Position numbers and translations under genes: made by a program | Shown here: in pieces, positions 177 through 29,538 of the stretch | How positions within the stretch are numbered: the stretch's first letter is position 1 | Layout: every line of letters starts with the position of its first letter | Source of the DNA: a virus | Direction: 5' to 3' (one strand) | IMG/VR virus record: IMGVR_UViG_3300036861_000805 | Location: 1-64,000 of that record | Length of the DNA: 64,000 nucleotides | Notes under the pieces: model-generated | What the model was told of the DNA's origin: nothing | What the model saw: only the letters and a program-made list of their open reading frames with translations | The model's database searches: none

Positions 177-872
177 TCGATCGCTCGTACTTCACGGTTG
201 GCTCAACGGCGACGGCTCGCTCTTCCACGACGGTTGGCTCCAGATCCACGGCTCGCTCGATACTGACGGTGTTCTCAACGGCGACGGCTCGCTCCGTAGA
301 TACGGATGTCTCCCGTAGTACGGCTCGCTCTAGTTCCACGGGTGGCGCCAAGTGGGCGGCTCGCTTCCACGTCTCGGTTTGCTCAGCATCGACGGCTCGC
401 TCGGTCCTGACGGGTTGACTCTCCTTCCCCGCCTCGCTTCGCTGCTTCGGGTGACGCCAGCTTCTCGGCCTCGCTCATTCATCCCGGGCATCTCTCTGCA
501 CGCGGCTCGCTCCCAACCTTCGGTTTGCTCAACATCGACGGCTCGCTCCCAGTTCTCGGATGGCTCTGGGAGGACGGCTCGCTCGGGCGCTACGGGTGAC
601 GCGCTGATCGCGGCTCGCTCATGTACCTCGGGTGACTCCCGAAGTACGGCTCGCTCGTCATCGCCGGGTATCTCCAGCGCGTCGGCTCGCTCGCGCCGGA
701 CGGTTGTCACGCTCGATACGGCTCGCTCTTCGGAAGAGGGTGACTCGCGCAGCGCGGCTCGCTCACTCCAGACGGTTGTCACGTTTGCGACGGCTCGCTC
801 AGGGTTGATGGTGGTCTCGCTGGCTTCGACTCGCTCACCCGCCACGGGCGTCTCAATTCTCACGACTAGCGG
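177..872 (-). ncRNA. TIGR-like dual-repeat guide RNA array 1, 19 units of 36 nt
   Basis: + strand block CGGCTCGCTC (some variant) at 213,249,285,321,357,393,430,466,503,539,575,611,647,683,719,755,791,827 with degenerate ends at 177 and 863; second block CGGDTGDCTC-like midway; 8-nt variable segments between. Confidence 0.88.
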
Positions 873-1039
873 CGCCGCTCGACTGCATCTTGGAGCGCGC
901 CCAGCGCGTTCCCCAGATCGTTCGAGATAGGTTCCGGTTCGGAGGCGAGCATGGCTTCCAGAACGTCGCAGACGAGATGCTTCACTTTCCACCAGCGGTA
1001 GAGCTGGAAGCGGCGCAGGCGAAGCACCCAGTCGTTCAT
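866..1039 (-). CDS. hypothetical protein between arrays (MNDWVLRLRR...)
   Basis: ATG at 1039 overlaps stop of 1036..1317. Confidence 0.6.
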   Translation of the reverse strand: MNDWVLRLRRFQLYRWWKVKHLVCDVLEAMLASEPEPISNDLGNALGALQDAVERRR

Positions 1040-1317
1040 TCGGCGGAATCTGCGTAGTCGGCGGAGATGCCTGGCGCGGATGCAGGCTCGGCCTCCCGGA
1101 TCAGCGCCTGCTGGGAAACCATCACTGTGAAGCTGCGAGTACAAATATCCGCGCTCTCGAGAAGTACGCGCTCTTCGACGCGCACTGTGCGCGAAGACAT
1201 GAAGGTGCCTTCCGCCGGAAGCGTGTCGACGGCCGCGGAGAAGGCCTGGTCGCGGTCATCGAAGCGCTCGCCGGAGTCCTTTCCCGGCAAGATGACTTCC
1301 CAGTACGTGCGTCTCAT
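1036..1317 (-). CDS. hypothetical protein between arrays
   Basis: 93-aa ORF, RBS-like GAAAGGAAAAG upstream. Confidence 0.7.
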   Translation of the reverse strand: MRRTYWEVILPGKDSGERFDDRDQAFSAAVDTLPAEGTFMSSRTVRVEERVLLESADICTRSFTVMVSQQALIREAEPASAPGISADYADSAE

Positions 1318-2426
1318 CGCTTTTCCTTTCGCTTCGGGTCCGGGCGCACGGAGCGCTCAGGGGAGGGAATGTGGATGCGCATATGCTTGCCCTTCGGCAG
1401 TGGATGCACTTTCCCGCAGAGCTTGCATATCGTCCCCGCCGGCGCAGTGGCAAGGCAAGTGCTGCGGCGAGTCTTGGTTCGCTCCAGCGATACGGATGGC
1501 TCAGCAGGCTCGGCTCGCTCACCGAGTGCGGGTTTCTCTCCGTCTTCGGCTCGCTCGTGCGCGACGGGTGGCTCGGCGTAGGTGGCTCGCTCTTCCATGG
1601 CGGGTGGCTCTCGACCCGCGGCTTGCTCGCTTCGGACGGGTGCCTCCAGTCGCACGGCTCGCTCATTCGCGACGGATGGCTCGGCACCGGCGGCTCGCTC
1701 GCCAGGAGTGGGTGACTCTCCTTTATCGGCTCGCTCCCGTCGGCCAGGTGACTTCGCTGGTACGGCTCGCTCTCTCGTGTCGGATGCCTCACCATCGACG
1801 GCTCGCTCACTTGTCGCGGATGACTCAGCACAGACGGCTCGCTTCCGCTGGACGGGTGACTCCGCACTGACGGCTTGCTCCATAGATACGGGTGACTCCC
1901 GACGTCCGGCTCGCTCGCATGTCGCGGGTGACTCCTTTCCTTCGGCGCGCTCACAGCCTGCGGGTGACTCACTATCAGCGGCTCGCTCCTCACAGTCGGA
2001 TGACTCCTCTACTACGGCTCGCTCTGGACTCACGGATTGCTCTCGCATCCCGGCTCGCTCGGCGACCCCGGGTGATTTCTCAGCGGCGGCTTGCTCCTTA
2101 GTCTCGGACGACTCAACTTCGACGGCTCGCTCGTGCTGGAGGGATGGCTCCTGCTTCTCAACTCGCTCTTCGGCTTCGGATGCCTCGCGAAAAACGGCTC
2201 GCTCTGCTTCAACGGGTGGCTTCCTCGAGGTGGCTCGCTTGCAGGCGACGGATGACTCTCTCGGCTCGGCTCGCTCCCAATGGACGGATGACTCCGCGTC
2301 GTCGGCTTGGCTGGCCCTAGCCCCGCCCGGGGAGGCAGGGGCTAGGCCAGCTTTCTCGGGCGCGGGTGCGGCAGGTGGAGTGGGCTCCGCGCCCGATTCT
2401 TCGAGCAGATCGTCGAATTCGTTCAC
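1314..2426 (-). CDS. possible 370-aa ORF reading through array 2 (E-R-A 12-aa repeats, C-terminal CxxCxxxH)
   Basis: GTG at 2426 overlaps upstream TGA; its TGA overlaps ATG at 1317; no internal stop; may be partly a shadow of the RNA array. Confidence 0.4.
   Translation of the reverse strand: MNEFDDLLEESGAEPTPPAAPAPEKAGLAPASPGGARASQADDAESSVHWERAEPRESSVACKRATSRKPPVEAERAVFREASEAEERVEKQEPSLQHERAVEVESSETKEQAAAEKSPGVAERAGMREQSVSPERAVVEESSDCEERAADSESPAGCERAEGKESPATCERAGRRESPVSMEQAVSAESPVQRKRAVCAESSATSERAVDGEASDTRERAVPAKSPGRRERADKGESPTPGERAAGAEPSVANERAVRLEAPVRSEQAAGREPPAMEERATYAEPPVAHERAEDGEKPALGERAEPAEPSVSLERTKTRRSTCLATAPAGTICKLCGKVHPLPKGKHMRIHIPSPERSVRPDPKRKEKR
1475..2312 (-). ncRNA. TIGR-like dual-repeat guide RNA array 2, 23 units of exactly 36 nt
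   Basis: Edge block every 36 nt from 1475 to 2303 with no indel; sense consensus GAGCGAGCCG-N8-GAGTCA(C/T)CCG-N8. Confidence 0.9.
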
Positions 2427-17360: not shown

Positions 17361-17370
17361 CCAGCGAACC

Positions 17371-17649: not shown

Positions 17650-17665
17650 GTAGCGGCGTGAAGTT

Positions 17666-18124: not shown

Positions 18125-18177
18125 GCTTCATGCTGTCAGCGTAAGACCAGCCCGTAGTTCAACCGAAAGGAGGCCAC

Positions 18178-18532: not shown

Positions 18533-18753
18533 ATCTCAAACTTTCCTACGCACAGGAGCGCAACCTCATAACGCTCGTGGACCTATATCCCAAGTGGATC
18601 CGCCCCGGATATCTGCATACACGCGCGAACACGCTCGAATCACTGGCGCGGTTTGGACTCGCCCAAGAGCGAATGCGAACGGGCGTCGGCCTTTACTGGG
18701 AATACCGGGCAACGAATGAGGGCATCGCTCTCTGCAACTCGATGGGGGACTGA
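18529..18753 (+). CDS. small winged-helix-like hypothetical protein
   Basis: TLESLARFGLA...YRATNEG. Confidence 0.6.
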   Translation: MNLKLSYAQERNLITLVDLYPKWIRPGYLHTRANTLESLARFGLAQERMRTGVGLYWEYRATNEGIALCNSMGD

Positions 18754-18971
18754 TGAAACCGACACCGATGACAAGCGAGACCCTGGCTGCAGTTCTTCGA
18801 CACATGGCCGAGCGAGTCGAAAAGCATGACTCGTTCGAGGGCAGCATCCAGTACCTCATGCCCACTACCGAGAACGTACCGGACGATACGTACACACTCG
18901 TTCAGGCGAGCTACCGCATCGGAAACACGGACGGGCAAGGCGGCGTCCGGCTGATCGGAGAGGAGATCTGA
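18753..18971 (+). CDS. hypothetical protein
   Basis: coupled; YRIGNTDGQGGVRLIG. Confidence 0.7.
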   Translation: MKPTPMTSETLAAVLRHMAERVEKHDSFEGSIQYLMPTTENVPDDTYTLVQASYRIGNTDGQGGVRLIGEEI

Positions 18972-19255
18972 TGAGCGAACTAGGCAAGCGCATCCAACGC
19001 GCGCGGCGCGGCAGCGGGTACACGCAGAAAAGCCTTGCCGAGCGCATGGGCGTGGAGTCGATCACCGTCTCACGCTGGGAGCGCGGCGTCACTCAGCCTA
19101 GCCTGCGCACGCTCGAGCGCATCTCCGCCCTCACGAAGGTACCGCTTTCGGACTTCGTCTCGGGCGACGGTGCCCCTAACGTCATCCTCGACGAGCTCAA
19201 GCGCATGCGCGAGGACATCGCGGAGATCAAGCGCGCGCTCATTCCAAGACGATGA
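18971..19255 (+). CDS. XRE-family HTH regulator (Cro/CI-like)
   Basis: TQKSLAERMGVESITVSRWERGVTQPS. Confidence 0.9.
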   Translation: MSELGKRIQRARRGSGYTQKSLAERMGVESITVSRWERGVTQPSLRTLERISALTKVPLSDFVSGDGAPNVILDELKRMREDIAEIKRALIPRR

Positions 19256-19503
19256 AGGAAACCATGACGAAAACGAGCAACCTCGATCAGGGCCTACTGG
19301 CGCAGGTGCGGCCCTCGGGCAAACACGACTCCGCGGCAAGACGCCGAACAGTGCGACGAGGCCGGGAACGCGGCTGTTGGTTGTATGTCCCCGCTGAGGT
19401 GATGGCCGAGGTCGGCGTGCGGCCGACCGATCCTCCGCCCTTCTACCGCACATGGGCGGGACACAAGCGAACCGTACTCGTCCAGTTCTACGACGAGCGA
19501 TGA
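19252..19503 (+). CDS. hypothetical protein
   Basis: ATGA overlap. Confidence 0.6.
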   Translation: MKETMTKTSNLDQGLLAQVRPSGKHDSAARRRTVRRGRERGCWLYVPAEVMAEVGVRPTDPPPFYRTWAGHKRTVLVQFYDER

Positions 19504-19686
19504 GGGAGTAGCTGTGTATATCGACGAGCAGCAGCAGTTGAAGCAGGAGCTTCTTGCTCTCCGCCAGTCTCTTACACCGCCACCCAGCTGCGCACAAGGG
19601 CACCTATTCAGGAAGAAGAAAGGAGGCGTACTCGAATGCGAGCGCTGTCTAATGACCCCCTTCGGCGTGCTCAGAGAGGAGGACCG

Positions 19687-19875
19687 ATGAGCAGTTGGGA
19701 AGTCTTCAGCCAGGAGGTGGCGTGCCCGGGGTGCGGCGCGCAGTACACATATCTCGTGGAAGCTCCGCCGATCGCAATGGTCGTGCGGCGCTTCGTGAAC
19801 GACGAAGGGCGCGAAGTCGGGGAGGACTGCCCACGCTGCTGGGAGCCGCTGCCCGTACCCGAGGAAGCGCTGTGA
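19687..19875 (+). CDS. zinc-ribbon protein
   Basis: GAGGAGG RBS; CPGC...CPRC. Confidence 0.65.
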   Translation: MSSWEVFSQEVACPGCGAQYTYLVEAPPIAMVVRRFVNDEGREVGEDCPRCWEPLPVPEEAL

Positions 19876-20087
19876 TCCCTTTGGAACGTGAAGTGCTGAG
19901 CGAATGGCGCGGTGCCGAGGCGGTTGCCCTCTACGGCGTCTGCGCATGCGAGAAAGCCACGCTCCAGAACCAGACGTGGTATGTGGTGCGCGAGAGCCGC
20001 CTGGAGCGGGACGGCCACATCTCGACTCACGGCTACGTCAGGTGCGCCCTCTGCCGCCGACCCTTGGGCTGGTGGGATCGTGCCTAG
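19872..20087 (+). CDS. Cys-containing hypothetical protein
   Basis: GTGA overlap. Confidence 0.55.
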   Translation: MIPLEREVLSEWRGAEAVALYGVCACEKATLQNQTWYVVRESRLERDGHISTHGYVRCALCRRPLGWWDRA

Positions 20088-20319
20088 CTCTCAGACTGAT
20101 AACGCATTTGAAGCCAAGCTCCGTCGCCTCGCCGAGGCCCTGCCGGCGGCAGTCTACGTCGGCCCACGGATCCTCCAGCATCCCCAGGGACGCTCCGAGT
20201 GGCACGTCGTGTCCGTGATGCACGAGAACGGTCGTTGGCAGGCCGTCTACTGCAAGACGCAGGAGATGGCCCAGGCGATCGAGCAGGCAGCCCGCTATGC
20301 CGAAAGGATCTCCAAGTGA
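20080..20319 (+). CDS. hypothetical protein
   Basis: GTG 20080 overlapping previous stop region. Confidence 0.55.
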   Translation: MPSSQTDNAFEAKLRRLAEALPAAVYVGPRILQHPQGRSEWHVVSVMHENGRWQAVYCKTQEMAQAIEQAARYAERISK

Positions 20320-20609
20320 AGACGATCTGGAAGTTCCCGCTGCATCATGCTGCCGACGAGGTCAGTATCGACATGCCTAAGGGGGCACGGATTCTCACGG
20401 TTCAGATGCAGGGAGAGACGCCCTGCCTATGGGCGGGCGTCGACCCCAACGCCGTGCTCGAGGCGCGAAGGATCTTGATCATGGGTACCGGACACCCGCG
20501 CCATGAACTGCAGTGGCTCGACGGCGACGAAAGCTCCCTGCGCTACATCGGCACTGTGCAAATGGCTGGCGGACAGCTCGTCTACCACTTCTTCGAGTGG
20601 CGGGGCTAG
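20316..20609 (+). CDS. conserved phage protein
   Basis: MKTIWKFPL...MPKGARILTVQMQ...GTGH...YIGTVQ...LVYHFFE. Confidence 0.75.
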   Translation: MKTIWKFPLHHAADEVSIDMPKGARILTVQMQGETPCLWAGVDPNAVLEARRILIMGTGHPRHELQWLDGDESSLRYIGTVQMAGGQLVYHFFEWRG

Positions 20610-20613
20610 CGTG

Positions 20614-20638
20614 TCCGAGTCAGCGCGTAAAGTTACCG
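20614..20638 (+). repeat. 25-bp intergenic element (copy at 27815-27839; inverted core at 32157-32171)
   Basis: TCCGAG(T/A)CAGCGCGTAAAGTTACCG, 24/25 identical. Confidence 0.7.
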
Positions 20639-20639
20639 C

Positions 20640-20930
20640 ATGCTTCGTCGCTTCCTGAACCATCTCCAGGGGATCGACCCCGAGTTGAACTCTCTGTCCG
20701 ACGAGCTCGGCGCTCCGAGGGAGTGGGTGGTGTGTCCTCATTGCGGTGCGCAATCTTGGCGGCTCCCGCCCCATGGAATCACGGAGCCCTGTCCGCTCGT
20801 TCAGGGAATGGTCGATTCCGTTGGTCTCAAGTTCGATGCCGAGCGCAACCTCGTGATCGGTTCGCGTCAGCAGATGGAGGCCATAACCAGGCTCTTCAAT
20901 CAGCAGCTCGGAGAAGGAGACGATCAATGA
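20640..20930 (+). CDS. hypothetical protein
   Basis: CPHC; 96 aa. Confidence 0.6.
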   Translation: MLRRFLNHLQGIDPELNSLSDELGAPREWVVCPHCGAQSWRLPPHGITEPCPLVQGMVDSVGLKFDAERNLVIGSRQQMEAITRLFNQQLGEGDDQ

Positions 20931-21127
20931 GAGGAATCGCCTCGTACACCCTTGAGGTCCTCGCACCGAGCGAGGTTCCCGCAGAGGAGGGATCAGCCTA
21001 TAACGCCGAACAACAGGAGCGGCGCGTTCTCTCCAAGCTGCCAGCCCTCGTCGAGGAGGCGGAGGAGAACTTGAGTGACATGCTTCCCGAAGGATTTCGG
21101 GTGCGGATCTCCGAAGCCCAATTCTAA
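20927..21127 (+). CDS. hypothetical protein
   Basis: AAGGAG RBS, ATGA overlap. Confidence 0.65.
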   Translation: MRGIASYTLEVLAPSEVPAEEGSAYNAEQQERRVLSKLPALVEEAEENLSDMLPEGFRVRISEAQF

Positions 21128-21142
21128 TCGAAAGGAAGAGAA

Positions 21143-21334
21143 ATGAAAAAGCAGCTGCTCGTCTGTGATCAATGCGGGAATGAAGTCGACTCTGACGGTG
21201 GAGTCCTGCGCTTCAACTACACCGACGGCCGGCGTGGATCCAAAGTTGCGGATCTCTGCGGGGTCTGCGCCAACAACCTCCCTGGTTCTCCAACAGCTCG
21301 CCGAGGGCGCCCGAAGAAGGAAGCACAGGAATGA
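21143..21334 (+). CDS. Lsr2-like small DNA-binding protein with AT-hook
   Basis: VCDQC...ADLCGVC...RRGRPKK. Confidence 0.6.
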   Translation: MKKQLLVCDQCGNEVDSDGGVLRFNYTDGRRGSKVADLCGVCANNLPGSPTARRGRPKKEAQE

Positions 21335-21732
21335 GTCGAAGCGTCGCAATGGGAAATTCGCTACCCCCGTGCAACAAGTGCGGCGGAGACTTGGTCCAGG
21401 AGCCCGAGCATCACAATGATCCGCGCGGCCCGGAGACGATCTTCCGTTGCACGAGTTGCGATCAAGTCATAGGTGTCCGCCCCGACGGCTCGCTTTGGGA
21501 GACGATCACAACCATCTACGGCAGGCCCACCACTGCGCAAGAACACCACGACCTCGCGGACGGGCAGGAGAAGGACAAGATCTTCTTCTCACAGCTTCGG
21601 CTCGCCGCTCACTACCAGACACTGTCCGAGCACATGCATTTCGTGAACGGGATGATGGACGCCGTCGAACGCTACAAGGCAGAGCATCCGCTTCCCGTCA
21701 GTCTCTGGCGACGGATCAAAGAAAGGATTTAG
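21331..21732 (+). CDS. zinc-ribbon hypothetical protein
   Basis: CNKC...CTSC. Confidence 0.65.
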   Translation: MSRSVAMGNSLPPCNKCGGDLVQEPEHHNDPRGPETIFRCTSCDQVIGVRPDGSLWETITTIYGRPTTAQEHHDLADGQEKDKIFFSQLRLAAHYQTLSEHMHFVNGMMDAVERYKAEHPLPVSLWRRIKERI

Positions 21733-21735
21733 AGC

Positions 21736-22257
21736 ATGAGCGACGGAGCAAACCTGGGCATCACCGCAGGACGAGCCCTCGGGACGATCCTCGGAGACGA
21801 CCCGCAGCCCTCAGACGACGGACGCGCAACGCCAGAAGAGGTCCGGGCTCGCTTGGAGGCTGCACCTCTCTTCGAGGGTCCCGCTCCCTGGGAAGGCGTC
21901 GAGCCTGGTGGTGACGATCCCGAGGGCCGCGACGAGGCTTACAGCGCAGCCTGCGACTCGATCGGGCACGCGTTCCTCATCCTGATCGAGGAGGACCCAT
22001 CCCTACTCGAGCCGCATCCCTATCCAAAGACGTACCCAGACGGAAGCCCTATGCCCGACTGGACGAAGGGAAAGAACCGTGACCAAGACAGCGTGGTCTG
22101 GGATGCGATGAAGGAGCGCTGGCCACATGCGAACGGCTGGCTCGGTGGAGCAAGCGGTTTCCAGGTCGGGTTCGCACTCAACGCTGCCCTCTATGCCTCC
22201 GGCCACAAGCCTGTGCCCAATCCGGCGATCGTGGAAGTGGAGGTCCCGAATGGCTGA
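21736..22257 (+). CDS. hypothetical protein
   Basis: 173-aa ORF in operon. Confidence 0.75.
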   Translation: MSDGANLGITAGRALGTILGDDPQPSDDGRATPEEVRARLEAAPLFEGPAPWEGVEPGGDDPEGRDEAYSAACDSIGHAFLILIEEDPSLLEPHPYPKTYPDGSPMPDWTKGKNRDQDSVVWDAMKERWPHANGWLGGASGFQVGFALNAALYASGHKPVPNPAIVEVEVPNG

Positions 22258-23461
22258 GGAAACCGACACCGATGTCATCGACGCCGAGGTCGTCGAGGAA
22301 GTGAGAAACCTTCCGGCCGTAAGGGCGTCCGAGGCGATCATCACTCGCGCCGAGCTCACCGTCGACGAAGTCGTCGCGCAGAAGGACAAGATCGAGGAGG
22401 TAATGAGGCGCGTCATGAAGCGCGACGTCCATTACGGCGTCATTCCGGGGGTGAACAAGCCGAGCCTGCTCAAGCCTGGCGCCGAGGCGATCAACGTGGC
22501 GTTGCGACTGGCGGCGCATTACGACTCCGAGAAGATCTGGCACGAAGACGGGCACCTCACCGTCGTCGCCAAGTGCGAGCTGCGCCACATTCCCACGGAT
22601 CTCGTCGTCGGCACCGGCGAGGGCCTATGCACGACGAAGGAATCCCGCTACGCGTTTCGCAAGGGCACGCGCCTGTGTCCGAACTGCGGCGAGCCACAGA
22701 TCAAGCGCTCGAAATTCAAGCCCAAGCGGGGCGATTACGACGGCGCGGGCCCGGACGATCCTCCTGGCTGGTACTGCTGGAAGAAGCAGGGCGGGTGTGG
22801 CATGAACTTCGCTCACGACGACGAGCGCATCATCTCGCAGTCCGAGGAGAAGATCCCGAATCCCGATCTAGCGGACACCTACAACACCGTGCTCAAGATG
22901 GCCGACAAGCGCGCACTGATCGCCGCGGATCTGAATGCCACCGCGGCTTCGGACATCTTCACCCAGGACGTCGAGGATGCTCCCGCCAGCGGGAGTGACA
23001 CCCCCGAAGAAGTCGCCAAGGACGAAGCCGTGACTGAAGAGAGGGCATTCGATCCCGGCAAGGATTTGCTCGAAAACGCGATCCAGGGTTCAGGAGAAGA
23101 GCAAGTCGCGGCCGTCCAGGAGGCCCTGCGAAACCTGAATGAGCGGATCGACTGGAGAGCGCTGATCGGGCAGGTGACGAAGCAGCACTTCAACAAGGCA
23201 TGGTCCAAGCTGACCAAGGCCGAGAAGACCGAGTGGTGGATCCGAGTTCGCAACGCGGCCGCAAAGCTCGAAGAGATCTCGCCTCCAGATCTCGGAGCCT
23301 CGCCCGAGTACATCCAGGATGCGTTCGCGTTCGCGTTCAATAGCCTCGCGGTGGAGATCGTCACTCTGGAACCGCCAGAGCCGGAAGAAGCCATCGAAGG
23401 CGTGTTGTCAGAGGAAGACGTAGAGAGACTGGCCGAAGAAGCCAGGGACACGGAATTCTGA
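22250..23461 (+). CDS. putative recombination / single-strand annealing protein
   Basis: HYGVIPGVNKPSLLKPGAE...NTVLKMADKRA...ASDIFTQDVED; function inferred. Confidence 0.6.
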   Translation: MAEETDTDVIDAEVVEEVRNLPAVRASEAIITRAELTVDEVVAQKDKIEEVMRRVMKRDVHYGVIPGVNKPSLLKPGAEAINVALRLAAHYDSEKIWHEDGHLTVVAKCELRHIPTDLVVGTGEGLCTTKESRYAFRKGTRLCPNCGEPQIKRSKFKPKRGDYDGAGPDDPPGWYCWKKQGGCGMNFAHDDERIISQSEEKIPNPDLADTYNTVLKMADKRALIAADLNATAASDIFTQDVEDAPASGSDTPEEVAKDEAVTEERAFDPGKDLLENAIQGSGEEQVAAVQEALRNLNERIDWRALIGQVTKQHFNKAWSKLTKAEKTEWWIRVRNAAAKLEEISPPDLGASPEYIQDAFAFAFNSLAVEIVTLEPPEPEEAIEGVLSEEDVERLAEEARDTEF

Positions 23462-23614
23462 TGCCAGTAGCCGAAGGGCCCCTCCCGGGGCCCTTCTCCC
23501 TCCAGCACCTTTCGCCGCGCCGGCGAAAGTTGTAGTCTCTCGGACGCCTATGAACGAAAGACTGGAAAGACCGTAGCACGTCCGGCGGTTGTTACGCAGC
23601 TTGTAGAAGCTGCA

Positions 23615-24472
23615 ATGCGTGACCGGATGGTGTATCGGGATCGCATCTGCTTCGCATCGAAAGCGACACTCGCGCAAGCCGCTGGCTGCTCGACGCGCTC
23701 GGTGCAACGGGCTTGGCGCGAACTCGAGCTCTCTGGCCGCTGGGAATGTGTCAAATCCCTACCTTCTGGAAAAGCCCCCAAGACCAGGGTGTGGAGAGCC
23801 GTGTCCGAGGAGACCACCGGAATCGTCGAGCGGGCCGTGGTAACCGAGACTACCGGAGCTGTCGAGCGAGCCGCGAGATCCGAGAACACCGGAGCGTACG
23901 AGCGTTATTTTGTCTCCCGACGTACTTCGTACAGAAAACCTCAAACCCCTCGGCCTTCTGATCTCAGGATCAGCGCTAGCGAAGGACCACGGCCGAGGCG
24001 CGCGAGCGCGCCGACCATCCGCTGCGGTAGGAGGAGAAGACTCGTGGAACGACACCCAGAAAAACTCTCCGAAGGGGTGGTGCGGCGGAATGGCGAGGTA
24101 ACTCCCTGGAATGCTGGAGACGCCGTAGCTGCCACGGTGGACTTCTGCCGCACACGCGGCATACCCCTTGCTCCCTCGATCCGAGCGCGACTGGGGAAGG
24201 CAGCGAAGGCGCTGCTCGAATCAGACTTCCCTCCGAACGTCGTCGTCGCTTCCTGTGTCGTTGCGATCAGGACTGGCTGGTTCGGATCTGTGGAGACGAT
24301 CGCGCAGGAAATGGCTGTAGCTCAGGCGGGGGAGCGGATGACGCGGCAGGCCTATGTTCAGGCGATGCACGAGACATCGAGGGAGATGGAACATTCAGAG
24401 AGCGAAGTGTGGAAAACGCTACGTGAGGAAACGCAAAGACGAGCAGAGAAATCGAAAGGAGCCGAAGCATGA
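23615..24472 (+). CDS. phage replication initiator-like HTH protein
   Basis: CFASKATLAQAAGCSTRSVQRAWRELE; upstream of loader-like gene. Confidence 0.65.
   Translation: MRDRMVYRDRICFASKATLAQAAGCSTRSVQRAWRELELSGRWECVKSLPSGKAPKTRVWRAVSEETTGIVERAVVTETTGAVERAARSENTGAYERYFVSRRTSYRKPQTPRPSDLRISASEGPRPRRASAPTIRCGRRRRLVERHPEKLSEGVVRRNGEVTPWNAGDAVAATVDFCRTRGIPLAPSIRARLGKAAKALLESDFPPNVVVASCVVAIRTGWFGSVETIAQEMAVAQAGERMTRQAYVQAMHETSREMEHSESEVWKTLREETQRRAEKSKGAEA
23792..23904 (+). repeat. three-unit TIGR-like mini-array inside the initiator gene
   Basis: TGGAGAGCCG-N8-GAGACCACCG-N8-GAGCGGGCCG-N8-GAGACTACCG-N8-GAGCGAGCCG-N8-GAGAACACCG-N8-GAGCG. Confidence 0.75.
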
Positions 24473-24960
24473 CGCAGATCGTGATCGACCTAGGCGAGGT
24501 CTGGGCTGATGAGCAAACCGTGGCTGAGGCGATCCTCGAACGGGCCGTGACGAGTCTGTTCGGAAGATACGAGTTACAGAAAGCCGTCGAGAAACGCGTG
24601 GCCGAGATGGCGGAGGAGCAGATCCGCGAGGCTGTCGCGCCGCTTGTCGCCAAGGCGCTCGAGAGGCCGTACCAGCCGACGAACGCCTACGGCGACAGGG
24701 TCGGCGAACCGACTGAACTCCGCGAAGTCATCGTCACGAGGGTCGAGTCGGAGTTAAAGCAGTCGCGCGCGGATTCTGGTGGTTTCAGCAGCTCTCGCCG
24801 CGAGACGCTGCTCGATGAAATCATCGGGCGCCAACTCGGGAAGGTGGTCGGCGAAGACCTGCGTCAGGCGATGGATGCTGCGCGCAAGAAGGTTCGGGAG
24901 GCGGTAGAAGCAAAAGGCGCAGAGGTGCTAGCGGAGACGATTGCGAGGATGGCGCGATGA
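24469..24960 (+). CDS. conserved phage hypothetical protein
   Basis: RBS; PTNAYGDRVGEPTELRE. Confidence 0.75.
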   Translation: MTQIVIDLGEVWADEQTVAEAILERAVTSLFGRYELQKAVEKRVAEMAEEQIREAVAPLVAKALERPYQPTNAYGDRVGEPTELREVIVTRVESELKQSRADSGGFSSSRRETLLDEIIGRQLGKVVGEDLRQAMDAARKKVREAVEAKGAEVLAETIARMAR

Positions 24961-25160
24961 GCCTTACTGCTGAGCAGATCCAGGACCTGCCCTGGGCCAC
25001 ACTGGACGATCTTCTCGACGCGAAAGAAGATGTAGCTGCCTACGGGCGCTGTTACGCGGAGATCTTGGACATCGAGGGGGACATGCGGATGCGGCGCATC
25101 TTGCCGGGGAGTCGCGCGACACCCATTCACCCTCCGCCTCAAGTGGGGGAGACTGGATGA
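24957..25160 (+). CDS. hypothetical protein
   Basis: ATGA overlaps at both ends. Confidence 0.6.
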   Translation: MSLTAEQIQDLPWATLDDLLDAKEDVAAYGRCYAEILDIEGDMRMRRILPGSRATPIHPPPQVGETG

Positions 25161-25684
25161 AGATCGGAGAGGCAGCAGAGCTTGTGGGCGTGATGGCCGC
25201 AATGACGAGCACCCGCTTGCTCGAGCAGGAACGGGAAGTCTGGATCGAGCAGGTATCGCCACTCGATGCGGATCTGGCGACGAAAGCCGTGCTCGAAGGT
25301 CGCCGGGAGTGGAAGCGCTTTCCCTCCTGGGCCCAATTCCATGAGGCATATGCGCTACAGAAGAAGCTCTCCGAGCCCGTCGGCGAGCAGCGGGACATGA
25401 TCGAGGTCCAAGGTAAGCGAGGCATAGCGACGCCGGAATGGGTCTACGTGTGGTGGTGGGCGCGCCGTTCGCGTACGCCCCGTTCTCTCATCCCCTTCCC
25501 GCAGGAGAAGGGTTTCGCGGACGACGCTGACATCATGTCCCAGGAACGCTACGACAAGCTGCTCGCAGAATGGGTAGCCGCCGGCTCTCCGAAGAAGGAT
25601 GTCGCTGAGGCGATGATCGGAAAGACCTCGAAGGGATCCACAGTCGACGACACGATCGCCGTGCTGAAGGAGACTGCGGAATGA
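25157..25684 (+). CDS. helicase loader/inhibitor-like protein (G39P-like)
   Basis: W...LDADLATKAV...KRFPSWAQF pattern and position. Confidence 0.5.
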   Translation: MKIGEAAELVGVMAAMTSTRLLEQEREVWIEQVSPLDADLATKAVLEGRREWKRFPSWAQFHEAYALQKKLSEPVGEQRDMIEVQGKRGIATPEWVYVWWWARRSRTPRSLIPFPQEKGFADDADIMSQERYDKLLAEWVAAGSPKKDVAEAMIGKTSKGSTVDDTIAVLKETAE

Positions 25685-25700
25685 TCCCGCTGGCGGGACA

Positions 25701-26426
25701 ATGAGTGCGCCGGCGGGACCCATGACAGCACAGGAGGTGAAGGATCGCCTGCGTGTCCACTATCCAGGGGGTGTCTTCGCAGGGATGCCCGGGCCGTGGA
25801 CGGTGATCGAGGAGTGGCGCAACATCGATTTTCTTGCCTGGAGCGCATGGGGGTCAAAAGGAAAGTTCATGCGTATCGGCCACGAGATCAAGGTGAGCCG
25901 CGCGGATCTGCGATCTGAACTTTTAGATCCAGGCAAGCGTGTGCTGAACGTGAACTGGTGCCACGAGTTCTACTTCGTCGTTCCCAGCGGACTTCTCACA
26001 GAGGAAGAGTTGGACTATCAGGAGCCTGAGTGGGAGGGCACGGACTTCCTAGGTGAGCGCTGCCCGGGGTTGTGGGGGAAGCAATGCCAGACATGGGGGC
26101 GACGAAGGACGCACTACGTCTACGTGCCGCTCCCGTACGTCGGCTCATGGACTCACGCCTGGGACTACATCGTCTGCCCCACCTGCAAGGGCAGGGGCGT
26201 CGTCCAGATTTCCCGTGTCGAGCGCGAGGCTCCAACATGTTGGGTTCCTCGAGACGTGGGGCTCCTGCAAGTCAGCAGGCGCGGGGTGTCGATCTTCAAG
26301 CGGAGCCCAAGACGTACCGAGGTTCCGCATCTGAGTGATCGCGAGTTCGGACAACTCGTTCGCTGGATCAGCATGCGTCCGGATTTGCGGCACCATCAGC
26401 AAACCGCCCTTTCACTGGCCGTGTGA
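25701..26426 (+). CDS. MmcB-like PD-(D/E)xK nuclease with zinc-finger insert
   Basis: IDFLA...HEIKVSRADL...WCHEFYFVVP...VGLL. Confidence 0.65.
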   Translation: MSAPAGPMTAQEVKDRLRVHYPGGVFAGMPGPWTVIEEWRNIDFLAWSAWGSKGKFMRIGHEIKVSRADLRSELLDPGKRVLNVNWCHEFYFVVPSGLLTEEELDYQEPEWEGTDFLGERCPGLWGKQCQTWGRRRTHYVYVPLPYVGSWTHAWDYIVCPTCKGRGVVQISRVEREAPTCWVPRDVGLLQVSRRGVSIFKRSPRRTEVPHLSDREFGQLVRWISMRPDLRHHQQTALSLAV

Positions 26427-26477
26427 TGAATCTCTCCGTTTGGCAGCGCATCGCGATCGAGAACTAGGGATGCTGCC

Positions 26478-26801
26478 GTGAGCAAACTCACCTGTGGAGG
26501 TGGCATCTTCGGCGAGGACCGCAGCGCGCTGTGTCTGGAGGAGCCGTTCCTGCACGCGCTTTTCTTGGACGAGACCGACACTTTGTGCTGTACGAAGCAT
26601 GTGCGGGTACTGAAGTACATGCGGATCATGGAGTTCAACGGGACGCCTCAGGTGCACGAGGTGACGTCAGAATGCCTTGATCCCGAGTCCGTCTGGGACG
26701 TTGAGGAGAACTGCTGCGTGCTCGAGGAGGACGAGCCGCTGGAGATCTCCGAGCGAGAGCAGATGCTCGCCCAAGCGCGACGTCGATACCTACACAGATG
26801 A
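26478..26801 (+). CDS. hypothetical protein
   Basis: 107 aa, Cys-rich. Confidence 0.6.
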   Translation: MSKLTCGGGIFGEDRSALCLEEPFLHALFLDETDTLCCTKHVRVLKYMRIMEFNGTPQVHEVTSECLDPESVWDVEENCCVLEEDEPLEISEREQMLAQARRRYLHR

Positions 26802-27313
26802 CGCGGAACAGAAAGATTCCGACCGAAGTGTGGGTGCTTCCGCGCCCTCGTCGCGACGCCTATGTCGGCTCCTTCCCGCTCCATTTCGAGCAGCGCTGGT
26901 GGCGTGTCGTCGGCAAGCCCGAGAGAGTGCTACAGCCGTTCGGCGGGCTGTGCGAGATCGGGGACTCTGTGGATCTGAATGAGAGCACCGCGCCTACCTG
27001 GGTCGGTGACGCACACGATCTGCACTGGATCGCCGACGATACATACGACGCCGTGCTCCTCGATCCGCCGTACTCGGACGAGGAGTCGGAGGAGCTCTAC
27101 GGCACGCCGCCGCTTCGCTACGGGAAGTTCGTTCAGGAGGCGGTGCGGGTGTGCAAGCCAGCGGGGCATGTGGCGATCTACCATAAAATCATGGCGCCGC
27201 GGCCGAAGGGCACGATCCTCGTCCATCGCATCGTTGTCCTCACCCGGGTCTGGCACTCCGCCCGCATTTGCATGATCTTCCGGAAGGACGACCGACTCAC
27301 CCTTGACCTATGA
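26798..27313 (+). CDS. short N6/N4 DNA methyltransferase-like protein
   Basis: VLQPFGG, VDLN, DAVLLDPPY. Confidence 0.75.
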   Translation: MTRNRKIPTEVWVLPRPRRDAYVGSFPLHFEQRWWRVVGKPERVLQPFGGLCEIGDSVDLNESTAPTWVGDAHDLHWIADDTYDAVLLDPPYSDEESEELYGTPPLRYGKFVQEAVRVCKPAGHVAIYHKIMAPRPKGTILVHRIVVLTRVWHSARICMIFRKDDRLTLDL

Positions 27314-27486
27314 CACTCTGCTCCGTCTGCCGTACTCCAAGACAATGCCTGCAAGAGGGCTGCTTCGTCGGGCGCGGGAAGAAGCGGCCCCCGAAAGAGG
27401 ACTTGAAACGCGAGCCAGATCGCGCGAGGATGCGCTGGCACAACCGCCACAAACGATTCATTCACTGACGACCCTTGGGAGGGGGA

Positions 27487-27831
27487 ATGTCGCTGTCAGA
27501 TCTCCGCCCGGACCCACCCGCCTGGGCGCTCGAAGCAGGACTGCCAGAGCCAGAAGAGAACGAGAGCTTCGTCGCCTACACTAGGCGTCTCGGGCTCGAC
27601 GTCGAGAAGCTGCTCGCCGATCTCACCGATCAGACGGCACCACTCGCCAACGTGCGCCTCGGCTCACGCCTCATGCGCCTGATACCGGACGCGTACGAGA
27701 GACACTTGGCGCAGCTCGTCGCGAAACATGGTGTCTCCTCGCCAGAGCGCAAGAGGCGGACGGAGAACCTCGCTCGCTCTCTCTTCGGCAAAGACTACCG
27801 TGCGAGGAAGTCCATCCGAGACAGCGCGTAA
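27487..27831 (+). CDS. hypothetical protein
   Basis: GGAGG RBS, ATG 27487. Confidence 0.65.
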   Translation: MSLSDLRPDPPAWALEAGLPEPEENESFVAYTRRLGLDVEKLLADLTDQTAPLANVRLGSRLMRLIPDAYERHLAQLVAKHGVSSPERKRRTENLARSLFGKDYRARKSIRDSA

Positions 27832-27860
27832 AGTTACCGTCATCCACGAAAGGAGAAACG

Positions 27861-28127
27861 ATGTACGACGAGGGATATGCCGACAAGTCGACGCCCGAAC
27901 GCGAGAGTTCCGGGCTCCAGCTCCAGTACGTCTGTGCGGAGCTCTCGAAGGAAGTCGAAATGCTTGAGCAACGACTGGTACCGGTACTGCGGCGAGTCCC
28001 GGAGGACCAGGTAATGCCCTCAACAATGCTGCGGGATTCCTCCGATTCGCCGCTCGCAGATCGAGTGGCCGAGCTACGTGAGGTCCGCGCGAAAATCACC
28101 AATCTGATCCAGCGTCTCGACGTCTAG
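27861..28127 (+). CDS. hypothetical protein
   Basis: AAAGGAG RBS. Confidence 0.7.
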   Translation: MYDEGYADKSTPERESSGLQLQYVCAELSKEVEMLEQRLVPVLRRVPEDQVMPSTMLRDSSDSPLADRVAELREVRAKITNLIQRLDV

Positions 28128-28130
28128 GGA

Positions 28131-28460
28131 ATGAAGCTCGTCGTCAACGAATCGCTCCCGCGCGCGCTCCGCCGGGCTCTCGAGCGGGATGCGCGCGGAA
28201 AGAACACTACGCTGAACGACGTCGCCGGCGAGATTCTCGCGGAGCACTATGGCATCGAGTGGGTGCATTCCGGGAGGAGCTACGAGCGCACCTCGGATCG
28301 CTTTCGGCTCAAAGTCCCCGACGCGATGCACCGCTTGCTCCTGATGGAGGCGGCGGATAGGCTCGGCACCCTCCGAGGCGTCGCGATCGGGACGCTTGAG
28401 GCTCACTACGGAACAAGGAAGAACATCAACGTTGGGCGGAGACCCAGAGGAGGCAAGTAG
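28131..28460 (+). CDS. tandem RHH-like DNA-binding protein
   Basis: two strand-helix-helix patterns (SLPRALRRAL...; LKVPDAMHRLL...). Confidence 0.5.
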   Translation: MKLVVNESLPRALRRALERDARGKNTTLNDVAGEILAEHYGIEWVHSGRSYERTSDRFRLKVPDAMHRLLLMEAADRLGTLRGVAIGTLEAHYGTRKNINVGRRPRGGK

Positions 28461-28462
28461 AC

Positions 28463-28711
28463 GTGGCCGAAACGATGTACGTGATCTTGAAGCAAAACGA
28501 GCTCGCCTCGGTACCGACAGAAGCGACATTCGGCGATACTGGTTGGGTCGAGATCGGCAAGCAGGCTGCGAGCAACCGCGAGGGTGCCATCCGAGCATTC
28601 ATGAACGAAGGCGAGAACGGCGACATGTTCGGCGAGGGCTCTTACCGTGCCGTCTCCGAGACTTCCTGGGGCGAGCCTGTTCCGATCGCGAAGAAGATCT
28701 CGTTCGGCTAA
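28463..28711 (+). CDS. hypothetical protein
   Basis: GGAGG RBS. Confidence 0.65.
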   Translation: MAETMYVILKQNELASVPTEATFGDTGWVEIGKQAASNREGAIRAFMNEGENGDMFGEGSYRAVSETSWGEPVPIAKKISFG

Positions 28712-28714
28712 CCG

Positions 28715-29338
28715 GTGGCGGGCGTTCCTGCCATTCTCCAAGCTGAGGCTTTTGAGGCCGCAGGGATCACGTTTACCGAAACCTCCCTGCAGATCGCGAA
28801 CCCAGAAGGGCTAAGCCGCGACGCCTACCTCCGCCTCGGAGCGTTCCTTGCGACGATCGGACGCGGTTACTGCTTCTGGGTTGGCGATCTTCTCAACAGT
28901 GCCGAAGACAATATCGAGGAGTGGGCACAACTCGAGGCGATCCTGCCTCATTCTCCGCATACCCTCGTCAACTACAAGTCGGTCGCATCCCGCATCCCGC
29001 GCACGCGGCGCCGCAAGATGCTCTCCTTTTCGACCCACGCGGAGGTCGCCTATCTCGACCCTCGAGTGCGAGACCAGTGGCTCGACAAGGCTGAGCGCTA
29101 TGACTGGAAACGAGAGGACATGCGCGCAGCGCTGAACGATGCGGGGCTGAAACCGAAAAGCTCGGGCTCGGTGGGCAATGAGGCCTTAACGAGCAAGAGC
29201 GATCCCTTAGGACGAGCAGGACTGGATCGCGAGGAACGCCTCGGTGCGAATGAGGCGCCTGCCCTTGGTCGCAGGGGTGAACTCGTGCCGAGCCCGAAGA
29301 TCTGCCCGCACTGCGGCCACGTGCTGGAGGAAGAGTGA
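28715..29338 (+). CDS. LmbU-like DNA-binding protein
   Basis: FWVGDLL...RRRKMLSFSTHAEVAYL...WLDKAE. Confidence 0.65.
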   Translation: MAGVPAILQAEAFEAAGITFTETSLQIANPEGLSRDAYLRLGAFLATIGRGYCFWVGDLLNSAEDNIEEWAQLEAILPHSPHTLVNYKSVASRIPRTRRRKMLSFSTHAEVAYLDPRVRDQWLDKAERYDWKREDMRAALNDAGLKPKSSGSVGNEALTSKSDPLGRAGLDREERLGANEAPALGRRGELVPSPKICPHCGHVLEEE

Positions 29339-29536: not shown

Positions 29537-29538
29537 CA

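What the first reader, a model, noticed from the sequence alone, without database searches (positions are those of the whole stretch)
23792..23904. Three TIGR-like units embedded in frame inside the replication initiator gene, 21 kb from the arrays
Seen: the same 10-8-10-8 pattern with edge blocks (TGGAGAGCCG, GAGCGGGCCG, GAGCGAGCCG, GAGCG) and loop blocks (GAGACCACCG, GAGACTACCG, GAGAACACCG; the last is identical to the array-1 loop at 267-276), on the sense strand just after the HTH. Established: phage initiator genes often carry origin iterons in this linker. Inference: either guides are excised from the initiator mRNA (coupling guide processing to replication control), array units can move to new sites, or iterons and array repeats share a binding protein or origin. 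I know of no description of this arrangement.
Basis: partly seen in the sequence, partly recalled or inferred. Interest (0 to 1): 0.82.

Follow-up and report, generated by a model that had tools for sequence, protein, structure and literature searches.

The report
TIGR guide units inside phage gene
Three units of a TIGR guide-RNA array sit in frame in the flexible linker of a DNA-binding, possibly replication, gene of a soil phage that has two long arrays but no gene for the Tas protein that would use them; this suggests such units can move, but nothing yet shows they do anything here.

Summary
At 23792-23904 (+) there are three 36-nt units (10-8-10-8), in frame in ORF 23615-24472. With a weight matrix built from the phage's own arrays, units 2 and 3 are the two best non-array hits in the whole 86.7-kb genome, and they lie in exact register.

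The arrays are true dual-repeat TIGR arrays. Fifty other viral loci carry the same edge motif, and at least 45 of them lie on a record with a Tas gene (NCBIfam TIGR_Tas_endo, E 3.9e-56).

This phage is complete (terminal repeats) and has no tas.

No homolog of the HTH_36 protein has the segment: 0 of 38 full-length database homologs, and none of 5 further contig-encoded ones. Two array-less relative phages lack it too. So it is most likely an array-derived insertion, translated as about 36 linker residues.

It looks guide-competent: all six spacers are flanked by intact CCG and GAG boxes. Use would need a Tas supplied in trans, and this is untested.

Origin iterons are unlikely. The "replication initiator" label rests only on weak HTH-level matches.

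A 2026 preprint describes in-frame units inside tas genes only. This scan has noted in-frame arrays in non-tas genes of other phages before.

The parts
23792..23904 (+). Three-unit TIGR-like mini-array in mRNA sense. Order: hybrid or 5'-cut edge 23792-23801; spacer A1 23802-23809; loop 23810-23819; spacer B1 23820-23827; full edge 23828-23837; A2 23838-23845; loop 23846-23855; B2 23856-23863; full edge 23864-23873; A3 23874-23881; loop 23882-23891; B3 23892-23899; 3'-cut edge 23900-23904.
   Evidence: Sequence read. TRF period 36. The repeat finder family D1. Weight matrix: the two best non-array hits genome-wide, in register. No further blocks in register outside these ends.
23615..24472 (+). 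Host gene: a 285-aa HTH_36 DNA-binding protein, replication-initiator-like. The units code for about residues 60-97 of its linker.
   Evidence: ORF. Pfam HTH_36 E 2.8e-7 at residues 3-40. phrog_8102 'replication initiation protein' E 7.2e-5. No NCBIfam or PDB sequence match. 77 homologs in 1.84 billion cluster representatives.
23621..23734 (+). HTH_36 domain (residues 3-40), upstream of the units.
24041..24448 (+). Conserved C-terminal domain of unknown family (residues 143-278), downstream of the units in the same frame.
   Evidence: tblastn 58% identity over residues 143-278 to L001 and L002. Invariant columns in alignment A1.
23798..23905 (+). Most likely extent of the inserted material: about 108 nt, or 36 codons. 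The ends are uncertain by a few nt. 23795-23902 fits equally well.
   Evidence: Homologs have 2-9 residues between the conserved [WY]R and V[TS] motifs where this protein has 38.
23901..23950 (+). Mildly A+T-rich stretch directly after the last cut edge.
   Evidence: 46% G+C in 50 nt, against a genome mean of 62.5% and a first percentile of 48%. It is not among the six stretches at or below 42%.
1475..2312 (-). It is the same edge type as the mini-array and is open in the E-R-A frame.
   Evidence: ORF 1314-2621. Open frame of 446 aa.
177..872 (-). TIGR array 1: 16 units aligned in my list, plus broken ones. It holds the two loop cores that also occur in the mini-array.
873..1474 (-). Spacer between the two arrays, at the position where 9 of 38 other loci have tas. 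Here there are only two small ORFs and no tas remnant.

Best explanation
The 113-nt element is a piece of TIGR array, three 36-nt units of the same edge type as this phage's own arrays. It was most likely copied into the length-variable linker of an HTH_36 DNA-binding gene. There it stays in frame and is translated as about 36 extra hydrophilic linker residues between the HTH and the conserved C-terminal domain.

Shown: the element is real. It matches the arrays far beyond chance. It is absent from every homolog examined. It sits in sense orientation and in frame. Arrays of this motif family are Tas-associated. This phage has no tas.

Inferred: the direction of transfer (array to gene); that the source was an array-1-like unit set of the same lineage; and that the peptide is a tolerated floppy linker.

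My reading of its present role is that it is a passenger. It has the form of a minimal three-guide array, but in this tas-less phage it can yield guides only if a cognate TasA is supplied by another element in the same cell. It is not the replication origin.
For: 1. Match to the arrays. The two top non-array weight-matrix hits in 86,757 bp lie 36 nt apart in register, at 20.2 and 17.6 bits, against a control maximum of 10.2.

2. Array grammar. All six spacers are preceded by CCG and followed by GAG. Both full edges have the C...G-closed 4-nt core and the three loops do not. The ends are cut edges. This fits the box C / box D and truncated-end description in PMC12045711 (sections 4 and 8 read) and the edge/loop phasing rule in the preprint's methods.

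3. The arrays are true TIGR arrays.
- 50 viral loci have the same edge-N8-loop-N8-edge motif.
- One protein family sits beside them in 39 of 50 loci. One more locus is added by HMM and 4 of 5 further records by profile search. L010 shares a contig with L007. That gives 45 of 50.
- That protein is Tas: NF052498 at E 3.9e-56 and 190 bits against a cut-off of 100; PDB 9mty_A at 1.3e-9 and TasH at 2.8e-8.

4. Insertion. 0 of 38 homologs of 200 aa or more carry even two ER[AT] triplets. L001/L002, L067, L068 and L072 also lack the segment. Homologs have 2-9 residues where this protein has 38.

5. The array-less relatives G001 and G002 have no arrays, no tas and no insert.

6. Source. Two of the three loop cores (AACA, ACCA) occur in array 1 of this phage and 0 times in the arrays of the 50 other loci.

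7. Precedent. In-frame intragenic units in disordered regions are reported inside tas genes (preprint section 5).
Against: - Only one genome carries the insert, so neither its age nor any selection on it can be measured.
- No donor unit was found. Only 1 of the 6 spacers has a one-mismatch match in 1,208 distinct array spacers, where about 0.6 per spacer is expected by chance. It is therefore not a fresh copy of a surviving unit.
- Despite that, all 12 box triplets flanking the spacers are intact. This could mean selection rather than passenger status.
- The Arg codons (AGA, CGG, CGA, CGT) and Thr codons (ACC, ACT) differ synonymously between units, and all three spacers B begin with G. Only 11% of array units have G at that position. 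Both facts hint at protein-level constraint or at duplication in place.
- The linker is an indel hot spot, so 'exactly three units inserted' cannot be fixed to the nucleotide.
Confidence: 0.6

Rival explanations
1. Working mini-array coupled to the message. The same insertion is a functional source of up to three tigRNAs. A TasA made by a co-resident phage or prophage with the same repeat type binds the units in the HTH-gene mRNA and cuts in the edge repeats. This releases guides and at the same time severs the message between the HTH and the C-terminal domain.
For: - All six spacers have intact flanking boxes, and the middle unit has two full edges. Minimal arrays of one to three units are processed if they have full edges (PMC12045711 section 5).
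- Dual-repeat Tas proteins cut pre-tigRNA themselves in the edge repeat, through a Tyr/His pair seven residues apart (passages). 5 of the 6 TasA sequences printed from this array family keep a Y-x6-H near the C-terminus.
- Units inside a tas coding sequence are expressed and processed (preprint section 11).
- The exact edge motif occurs in 50 viral loci, so a compatible TasA in the same host is conceivable.
Against: - There is no tas in this complete genome.
- No target was found for any of the 41 guides in 728,619 bases searched. The proper two-strand geometries score no better than the control geometries.
- The units score below every true array unit.
- Three extra guides add little to the 38 or more in the arrays, and cutting one's own replication-module message looks costly.
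- 4 of 4 fully listed complete tas-bearing genomes have no remote mini-array.
Confidence: 0.2
2. Origin iterons. The six 10-nt blocks are binding sites of the HTH protein inside its own gene, as in lambda O/ori. The long arrays would then titrate the same protein.
For: - There are direct repeats in the linker-coding part of a putative initiator gene. Their position matches the lambda arrangement, which I recall rather than tested.
- A mildly A+T-rich 50 nt follows the units (46% G+C, below the first percentile).
Against: - The repeat type is tied to TasA in at least 45 of 50 other loci. The fetched flanks of those loci share almost no genes with this phage: only 5 ORFs of this genome have any hit there, and none lies near the arrays.
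- Homologous genes show no multi-copy repeats at this position: L002, L067, L068 and L072 give only two-copy short matches.
- The blocks are not palindromic, and they alternate in the edge/loop manner of an RNA array.
- The initiator role itself is weakly supported.
- Cumulative G-C skew turns at 2328 and 34014, not here.
Confidence: 0.07
3. Protein-level repeat. The 12-residue units matter as peptide, or arose as an ordinary coding tandem repeat that only resembles the arrays.
For: - The units differ by synonymous codon changes.
- Array 2 of the same phage is open for 446 aa in the same E-R-A frame.
- The tail of that ORF resembles the tail of an RHH-units-zinc-knuckle ORF in another phage: 16 of 36 identical, pairwise E 2e-6.
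- Simple ERA-type coding repeats are common in G+C-rich bacterial genomes and hit the same DNA pattern.
Against: - Conservation is block-wise. The boxes are kept while the A spacers are about as alike as random. This is unlike the near-identical copies in the bacterial ERA repeats.
- Edge and loop blocks alternate as in the phage's arrays, and two loop cores are shared with array 1 only.
- No homolog has any such repeat.
- Across 696 unique units from 51 sources (the 50 loci plus this genome), the E-R-A frame carries 115 stops, so arrays in general are not ORFs.
Confidence: 0.06

Closest known systems
Dual-repeat TIGR arrays of TIGR-TasA systems (Faure et al. 2025, PMC12045711; sections 4, 5, 6, 8, 10 and 24 read)
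   Same: 36-nt units built of edge, spacer A, loop and spacer B. Both repeats begin and end with the same short boxes (here GAG and CCG). The edges have a base-paired core and the array ends are cut edges. The long arrays of this motif family abut a Tas gene on the same strand in 38 of 38 loci examined.
   Different: Only three units. They lie inside a protein-coding gene that is not tas, 21 kb from the main arrays, in a complete phage genome with no tas. Spacers are 8 nt, where the paper gives 9 nt as typical.
Intragenic, in-frame tigRNA units inside tas genes (Xu et al., bioRxiv 10.64898/2026.09.09.750476; sections 5, 11 and 13 read)
   Same: Guide units written in frame into a coding sequence, at a poorly structured stretch between folded parts, without breaking the reading frame.
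   Different: There the host gene is the effector gene itself, and the units are mostly of stem-loop type. Here it is an unrelated HTH_36 gene, the units are of dual-repeat type, and the effector gene is absent from the genome.
Origin iterons inside phage initiator genes
   Same: Direct repeats in the linker-coding part of a DNA-binding replication-type gene, followed by a somewhat A+T-rich stretch.
   Different: The repeats here carry the grammar of an RNA guide array shared with phages whose fetched flanks share almost no genes with this one. Homologous genes have no repeats at this position, and the A+T-rich stretch is short and mild.
Virus-borne orphan mini-CRISPR arrays and solitary repeat units
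   Same: A mobile element carries guide-array pieces without the effector, and so depends on an effector made by another element.
   Different: A different RNA-guided system. Here the units are also translated as part of a protein.

Membership tests
Dual-repeat TIGR array | Two alternating short repeats with fixed-length short spacers, giving a 36-nt unit | tested here: met
   10-8-10-8 spacing, three times, spaced 36 and 36.
Dual-repeat TIGR array | The same box D start and box C end on both edge and loop repeats, flanking every spacer | tested here: met
   All six spacers are preceded by CCG and followed by GAG. Only the outermost, non-flanking start of the first edge differs, reading TGG. 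The criterion is taken from PMC12045711 section 8 and the preprint methods.
Dual-repeat TIGR array | The edge core closes by a complementary pair; the loop core does not | tested here: met
   Full edges have cores CGGG and CGAG (C...G). Loop cores are ACCA, ACTA and AACA. The hybrid first edge, AGAG, does not pair.
Dual-repeat TIGR array | Same repeat type as arrays that accompany a Tas gene | tested here: met
   The exact edge motif is found in 50 viral loci, and at least 45 of them lie on a record with Tas.
Dual-repeat TIGR array | A Tas gene in the same genome | tested here: not met
   No hit at E up to 10 with PF01798, with a 6-sequence TasA profile or with NF052498. hmmsearch --max gives a best E of 1.4. 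hhalign gives a best probability of 2.6% over 159 ORFs. The same NF052498 model finds Tas in 4 of 4 complete array-bearing genomes.
Dual-repeat TIGR array | Transcribed and processed into 36-nt RNAs bound by Tas | not testable with these tools
   No RNA data could be laid on this stretch.
Intragenic in-frame tigRNA units (Xu et al. preprint) | Units lie in frame and do not break the ORF | tested here: met
   The HTH_36 domain and the conserved C-terminal domain are in one frame across the units.
Intragenic in-frame tigRNA units (Xu et al. preprint) | Units fall in a disordered region between folded elements | tested here: inconclusive
   The site is a poorly conserved, length-variable linker, 2-9 residues long in homologs.
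Intragenic in-frame tigRNA units (Xu et al. preprint) | The host gene is tas | tested here: not met
   The host gene is an HTH_36 protein with no Tas or Nop similarity.
Origin iterons within an initiator gene (lambda O type) | The gene is the replication initiator | tested here: inconclusive
   HTH_36 at E 2.8e-7 and phrog_8102 at E 7.2e-5, over the HTH region only. One homolog hits phrog_270 at 2.1e-4 and three others have no initiator hit. No PDB or NCBIfam match.
Origin iterons within an initiator gene (lambda O type) | Iterons at the equivalent place in homologous genes | tested here: not met
   L002, L067, L068 and L072 give only two-copy short matches. No repeat peptide appears in any of the 38 full-length homologs.
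Origin iterons within an initiator gene (lambda O type) | Adjacent A+T-rich unwinding region | tested here: inconclusive
   46% G+C over 50 nt at 23901-23950. This is below the first percentile (48%) but is not among the six lowest stretches of the genome.
Origin iterons within an initiator gene (lambda O type) | The initiator binds the repeats and replication starts there | not testable with these tools
   This needs a gel-shift assay and origin mapping.

The most novel reading that the evidence does not exclude
A tas-less phage uses its guide units as a parasite of other phages' TasA, and the three units in the HTH-gene message act as a sensor. When a compatible TasA appears in the cell, its own RNase activity cuts the message in the edge repeats. 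That releases guides loaded with this phage's spacers and, at the same stroke, uncouples the HTH from the C-terminal domain of a replication-module protein. Guide borrowing and control of replication would then be linked through one RNA. A second bold reading is that the roughly 108-nt insert descends from a three-unit processing intermediate, that is, that TIGR units spread in whole-unit pieces.
Probability: 0.12. Interest if true: 0.85.

Novelty: new variant of a known kind. Interest (0 to 1): 0.55.

Why it matters
How TIGR arrays arise, grow and spread is an open question. Both papers I read state this (PMC12045711 discussion; preprint discussion). Here, insert-free homologs frame a discrete piece of array sitting in an unrelated gene. 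That is evidence that units can be copied to new places and survive there by being translatable.

The phage also shows that long, well-kept arrays can exist in a complete genome without any tas. Surveys that start from tas loci cannot see this, and TIGRFinder does start from tas loci (preprint section 5).

If such guides are used in trans, TIGR systems would have guide-only parasites, as has been proposed for CRISPR mini-arrays in viruses.

If the units are inert, the case is still a caution for annotation. Repeat peptides in phage linkers may be array debris, and motif searches also hit ordinary ERA-type coding repeats in G+C-rich bacteria.

Tried and rejected
**RNA evidence.** No RNA holder was listed for window 20000-29000. 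The two DNA contig sets, X1 (which may be the source sample) and X2, were laid on 15000-30000. They show no indel or variant at the units, and one X1 contig covers 22048-30000 without differences. So no population variant with or without the insert was seen.

**Targets.** I searched 41 guides (38 from the arrays, 3 from the mini-array), joined as 16-mers in the two proper two-strand geometries and in two control geometries. The search covered 728,619 bases: this genome, G001, G002 and the 50 loci. With up to 2 mismatches there were 41 and 40 hits in the proper geometries, against 35 and 30 in the controls. With up to 1 mismatch there was 1 proper hit against 3 control hits. No target was found.

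**Donor unit.** None was found.

**Tas in this genome.** PF01798, my own HMM of 39 TasA sequences, hhalign against 159 ORFs, a 6-sequence profile and NF052498 were all blank.

**Remnants between the arrays.** tblastn of eight neighbouring or end-of-genome proteins and blastn of the inter-array DNA against the 50 loci found nothing. The HTH protein was in the same query set and hit only translated arrays, through its repeat.

**Other blanks.**
- Homologs of the L011 RHH-units ORF: none at E up to 0.01.
- Supposed paralogy of the two small ORFs 2423-2662 and 866-1144: E 0.81, so dropped.
- Promoter and terminator scan of 22800-25200: 0 and 0.
- Function of the HTH protein: no NCBIfam match, and the best PDB sequence match is E 0.22.

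**Host or prophage.** The pattern scan of 185,579 species genomes gave 97 stretches. My script read 80 loci (L073-L152). By my reading of their printed translations, most are simple ERA-type tandem repeats with identical 'spacers', and about ten look array-like, all on contigs of metagenome-assembled genomes. No host could be inferred.

**Remote mini-arrays elsewhere.** None were found in G004-G007, where all 145 matches lie in the main arrays. 46 matches of G003 were not listed. G008 does have remote units.

**Literature.** The search 'TIGR-Tas / tigRNA' gave 51 papers, of which 20 were listed. I read sections of two of them and passages of a third. The search 'TIGR array' plus 'orphan' gave one unrelated paper. 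My statement that units in non-tas genes and tas-less array phages are not described covers these only. Supplementary tables were closed and may list such cases.
Full report
**What is there**

Window 23792-23904 (+) reads as three 36-nt units. The order is:
- a first block whose last four bases match an edge repeat;
- spacer, loop and spacer, then a full edge (one mismatch to the array edge);
- spacer, loop and spacer, then a full edge (exact);
- spacer, loop and spacer, then the first five bases of an edge.

Tandem Repeats Finder reports period 36, 2.6 copies and 78% matches. The repeat finder reports three copies spaced 36 and 36.

The window is bases 1-64000 of an 86,757-bp viral record with 127-bp direct terminal repeats. 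It is rated 100% complete.

Two long arrays lie at about 177-872 and 1475-2312. Read on the minus strand they have the same 10-8-10-8 plan and a nearly invariant edge. Of the 60 genome-window matches to the edge with up to one mismatch, 36 are in these arrays and 2 are in the finding. Shuffles give 24.8 +/- 5.0.

**Is it more than chance?**

I built a 36-nt weight matrix from 38 array units and scanned both strands of the whole genome.
- The two best hits outside the arrays are 23864 (20.2 bits) and 23828 (17.6 bits). They are adjacent and in exact register.
- The third unit scores 6.8 bits.
- The reversed-genome control peaks at 10.2 bits.
- Real array units score 21.3-37.4 bits.

The other weak hits (18810, 11427 and others) are lone edge-like 10-mers without a loop block. 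There are no further blocks in register on either side of the element.

**Are the arrays really TIGR arrays?**

An exact-pattern scan of viral contigs found the same edge-N8-loop-N8-edge motif in 50 loci.

Clustering all ORFs of these loci gave one family of about 270-350 aa, present in 39 of 50 loci. Three further steps raise the count:
- an HMM of the family adds L026;
- a profile search of whole records adds 4 of 5 more;
- L010 shares its contig with L007.

So at least 45 of 50 loci lie on a record with this protein. The other five are short loci or loci with the array at an end, or a record rated 23% complete.

The protein is Tas. It matches NCBIfam NF052498 'TIGR-Tas system RNA-guided endonuclease' at E 3.9e-56 and 190 bits, against a cut-off of 100. 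It also matches PDB chains 9mty_A (1.3e-9) and TasH 21kl_A (2.8e-8).

In 38 of 38 loci the arrays, read GAG...CCG, are on the tas strand and within 88 nt of it. In 9 loci they flank tas on both sides.

This fixes the sense strand. The long arrays of the window are on the minus strand. The three units are in the sense of the mRNA of ORF 23615-24472.

The grammar agrees with the published description: both repeats begin and end with the same short boxes, the edges have a paired core, and array ends are cut edges (PMC12045711 sections 4 and 8; preprint methods passage).

**No tas in this phage**

Every search was blank:
- Pfam Nop;
- my HMM of 39 TasA sequences run with all filters off on every open frame of 40 aa or more (best E 1.4);
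- hhalign of that alignment against 159 coding-like ORFs (best probability 2.6%);
- a six-sequence profile;
- NF052498.

As a positive control, the NF052498 model finds Tas over the cut-off in 4 of 4 complete array-bearing genomes, and nothing in the array-less relative G002.

The 600 nt between the two arrays is where 9 other loci have tas. Here it holds two small ORFs with no similarity to tas or to anything in the 50 loci.

**The host gene**

ORF 23615-24472 codes for 285 aa.
- It has a Pfam HTH_36 domain at residues 3-40 (E 2.8e-7).
- It matches phrog_8102 'replication initiation protein' at E 7.2e-5, over the HTH region.
- Its C-terminal domain (residues 143-278) is conserved in relatives but matches no family in NCBIfam or in PDB sequences.
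- Of four homologs scanned, one hits another initiator PHROG at 2.1e-4 and three hit none.

The neighbouring genes belong to phage families of mostly unknown function: phrog_10048, phrog_26090 and phrog_5429, the last annotated 'DNA repair protein'.

'Replication initiator' is therefore plausible, not shown.

**The segment is an insertion**

Homologs came from four searches: 3 proteins, 2 viral loci, 6 metagenome loci and 77 cluster representatives.
- None of the 79 stored proteins has even two ER[AT] triplets, and 38 of them are 200 aa or longer.
- The five contig-encoded proteins with a complete linker (L001 and L002, which are identical, plus L067, L068 and L072) also lack the segment.
- Between a conserved [WY]R and a conserved V[TS], homologs have 2-9 residues. 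This protein has 38, of which 36 are the units.

The inserted material is about 108 nt: 23798-23905, or equally 23795-23902. It begins and ends inside an edge repeat. Because this linker position varies in length among homologs, the ends cannot be fixed to the base. I give little weight to the tempting point that 108 nt equals a three-unit processing intermediate.

The relatives G001 (77 kb) and G002 (101 kb) share scattered stretches of 65-97% nucleotide identity, mostly 65-77%, along the genome. They have no arrays (pattern matches equal the control), no period-36 repeats and no tas.

**Where the units came from**

Two of the three loop cores (AACA, ACCA) occur in array 1 of this phage. Neither occurs in the arrays of the 50 other loci. 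The third core (ACTA) occurs once elsewhere. This points to the phage's own lineage.

No surviving unit shares the spacers. One of the six spacers has a one-mismatch match, which is the chance level.

All three spacers B start with G. Only 11% of 696 unique units have G at that position. So part of the triplet may have grown by duplication in place, or the glycine codon is kept for the protein.

**What it does**

Origin iterons are unlikely, for three reasons:
- the repeat type belongs to TasA in phages whose fetched flanks share almost no genes with this one;
- homologous genes have no repeats here;
- the A+T-rich stretch after the units is short and mild (46% G+C).

In form, the element is a minimal three-guide array. 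Published work bears on whether it could be used:
- minimal arrays are processed if their edges are full (PMC12045711 section 5);
- dual-repeat Tas proteins themselves cut in the edge, through a Tyr/His pair (passages);
- five of the six TasA sequences of this array family that I printed keep Y-x6-H near the C-terminus;
- units inside a tas coding sequence are expressed and processed, in regions described as disordered (preprint sections 5 and 11).

So if a compatible TasA is present, the message of this gene could be cut and yield guides. With no tas in the genome, that requires another element in the same cell. I found no target and could get no RNA data.

My best reading, at 0.6, is an array-derived insert tolerated as linker. 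The same insert acting as a working mini-array gets 0.2.

**Relation to what is known, and to this scan**

In-frame intragenic units are described in the September 2026 preprint, but inside tas. I found no description of units in another gene, or of a complete tas-less phage with long arrays, in the papers I read or searched. Supplements were closed.

Earlier notes of this scan, unchecked by me, report similar cases on other DNA:
- in-frame arrays in a primase gene, a methyltransferase gene, a partner-gene linker and a late ORF of other phages;
- one tas-less phage with stem-loop units.

The phenomenon therefore recurs. This case adds an insertion framed by many insert-free homologs, and the absence of the effector.

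**A parallel seen here**

In G008 (47 kb, rated 92% complete) the main array abuts tas at 37.4-38.6 kb. About 18 kb away, at 18.9-19.7 kb, lie further units. About six of these units sit in the E-R-A frame of a 158-aa ORF, which has an RHH-like start and a Cys/His tail.

That tail resembles the tail of the ORF that runs through array 2 of this window: 16 of 36 identical, pairwise E 2e-6. By eye, several of the shared residues use different synonymous codons.

Across all 696 unique units the E-R-A frame has 115 stops, against 163 +/- 9 under column shuffling. So arrays in general are not ORFs, but this frame is the friendliest to translation. That may be why units survive inside genes.

Noticed in passing
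whole genome G000 (window 1-64000 plus 64001-86757): A complete, terminally redundant 86.7-kb phage carries two long TIGR arrays (38 units in my list) but no tas gene by five different searches. The same models find tas in the other array-bearing genomes tested. Where 9 other loci have array-tas-array, the 600 nt between the arrays here holds two small unrelated ORFs.
   Followed up: yes
window 1314-2621 (-): Array 2 is open for 446 aa in the E-R-A frame. It ends in a Cys-rich tail that resembles the tail of an ORF in another phage (L011): 16 of 36 identical, pairwise E 2e-6. Array 1, by contrast, is broken in this frame.
   Followed up: partly
L011 5132-5608 (-), which is G008 about 19.4-19.9 kb: A 158-aa ORF with an RHH-like N-terminus, about six TIGR units in frame, and a Cys/His tail. 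It lies about 18 kb from the only tas of that 47-kb record, which has its main array next to tas. Further units lie just downstream, at 18877-18958 and 19332-19377 of G008. No protein homolog was found at E up to 0.01.
   Followed up: partly
L073-L152 (bacterial and archaeal genome contigs): By my reading of the printed translations, most matches of the exact TIGR edge-loop-edge pattern in cellular genomes are plain tandem coding repeats of the ERA type (9- or 18-nt periods with identical 'spacers'), mostly in G+C-rich Actinomycetota and Myxococcota. About ten look like arrays, all on contigs of metagenome-assembled genomes. Motif-only searches for this array type will therefore give false positives.
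   Followed up: partly
window 177-2312 compared with L007-L056: The loop cores of this phage's arrays are mostly of the form xCAy (TCAC is the commonest). The family-wide commonest cores are AGAA (238), AGCA (72) and AGTA (30). The edge is the same throughout.
   Followed up: no
arrays of L007-L056 and G000: Stop codons are depleted in all three frames of 696 unique units, relative to column-shuffled units. The depletion is strongest in the E-R-A frame: 115 observed against 163 +/- 9. In several loci the array runs in frame into the next gene (tas, a methyltransferase, or an ORF I judged by eye to be YqaJ-like).
   Followed up: partly
window 2655-2999 (-): A ribbon-helix-helix protein lies two genes upstream of array 2 on the array strand. 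It matches Pfam RHH_10 at E 1.5e-7, with a weak ParG match.
   Followed up: no
G010:C1:8466-9287 (record of L015): The tas match in this complete 40-kb record contains one in-frame TAA.
   Followed up: no
window 10543-11754 and 15531-17360 (+): The phage encodes a DNA polymerase III beta clamp (three Pfam domains) and a protein with a C-5 cytosine methylase domain.
   Followed up: no
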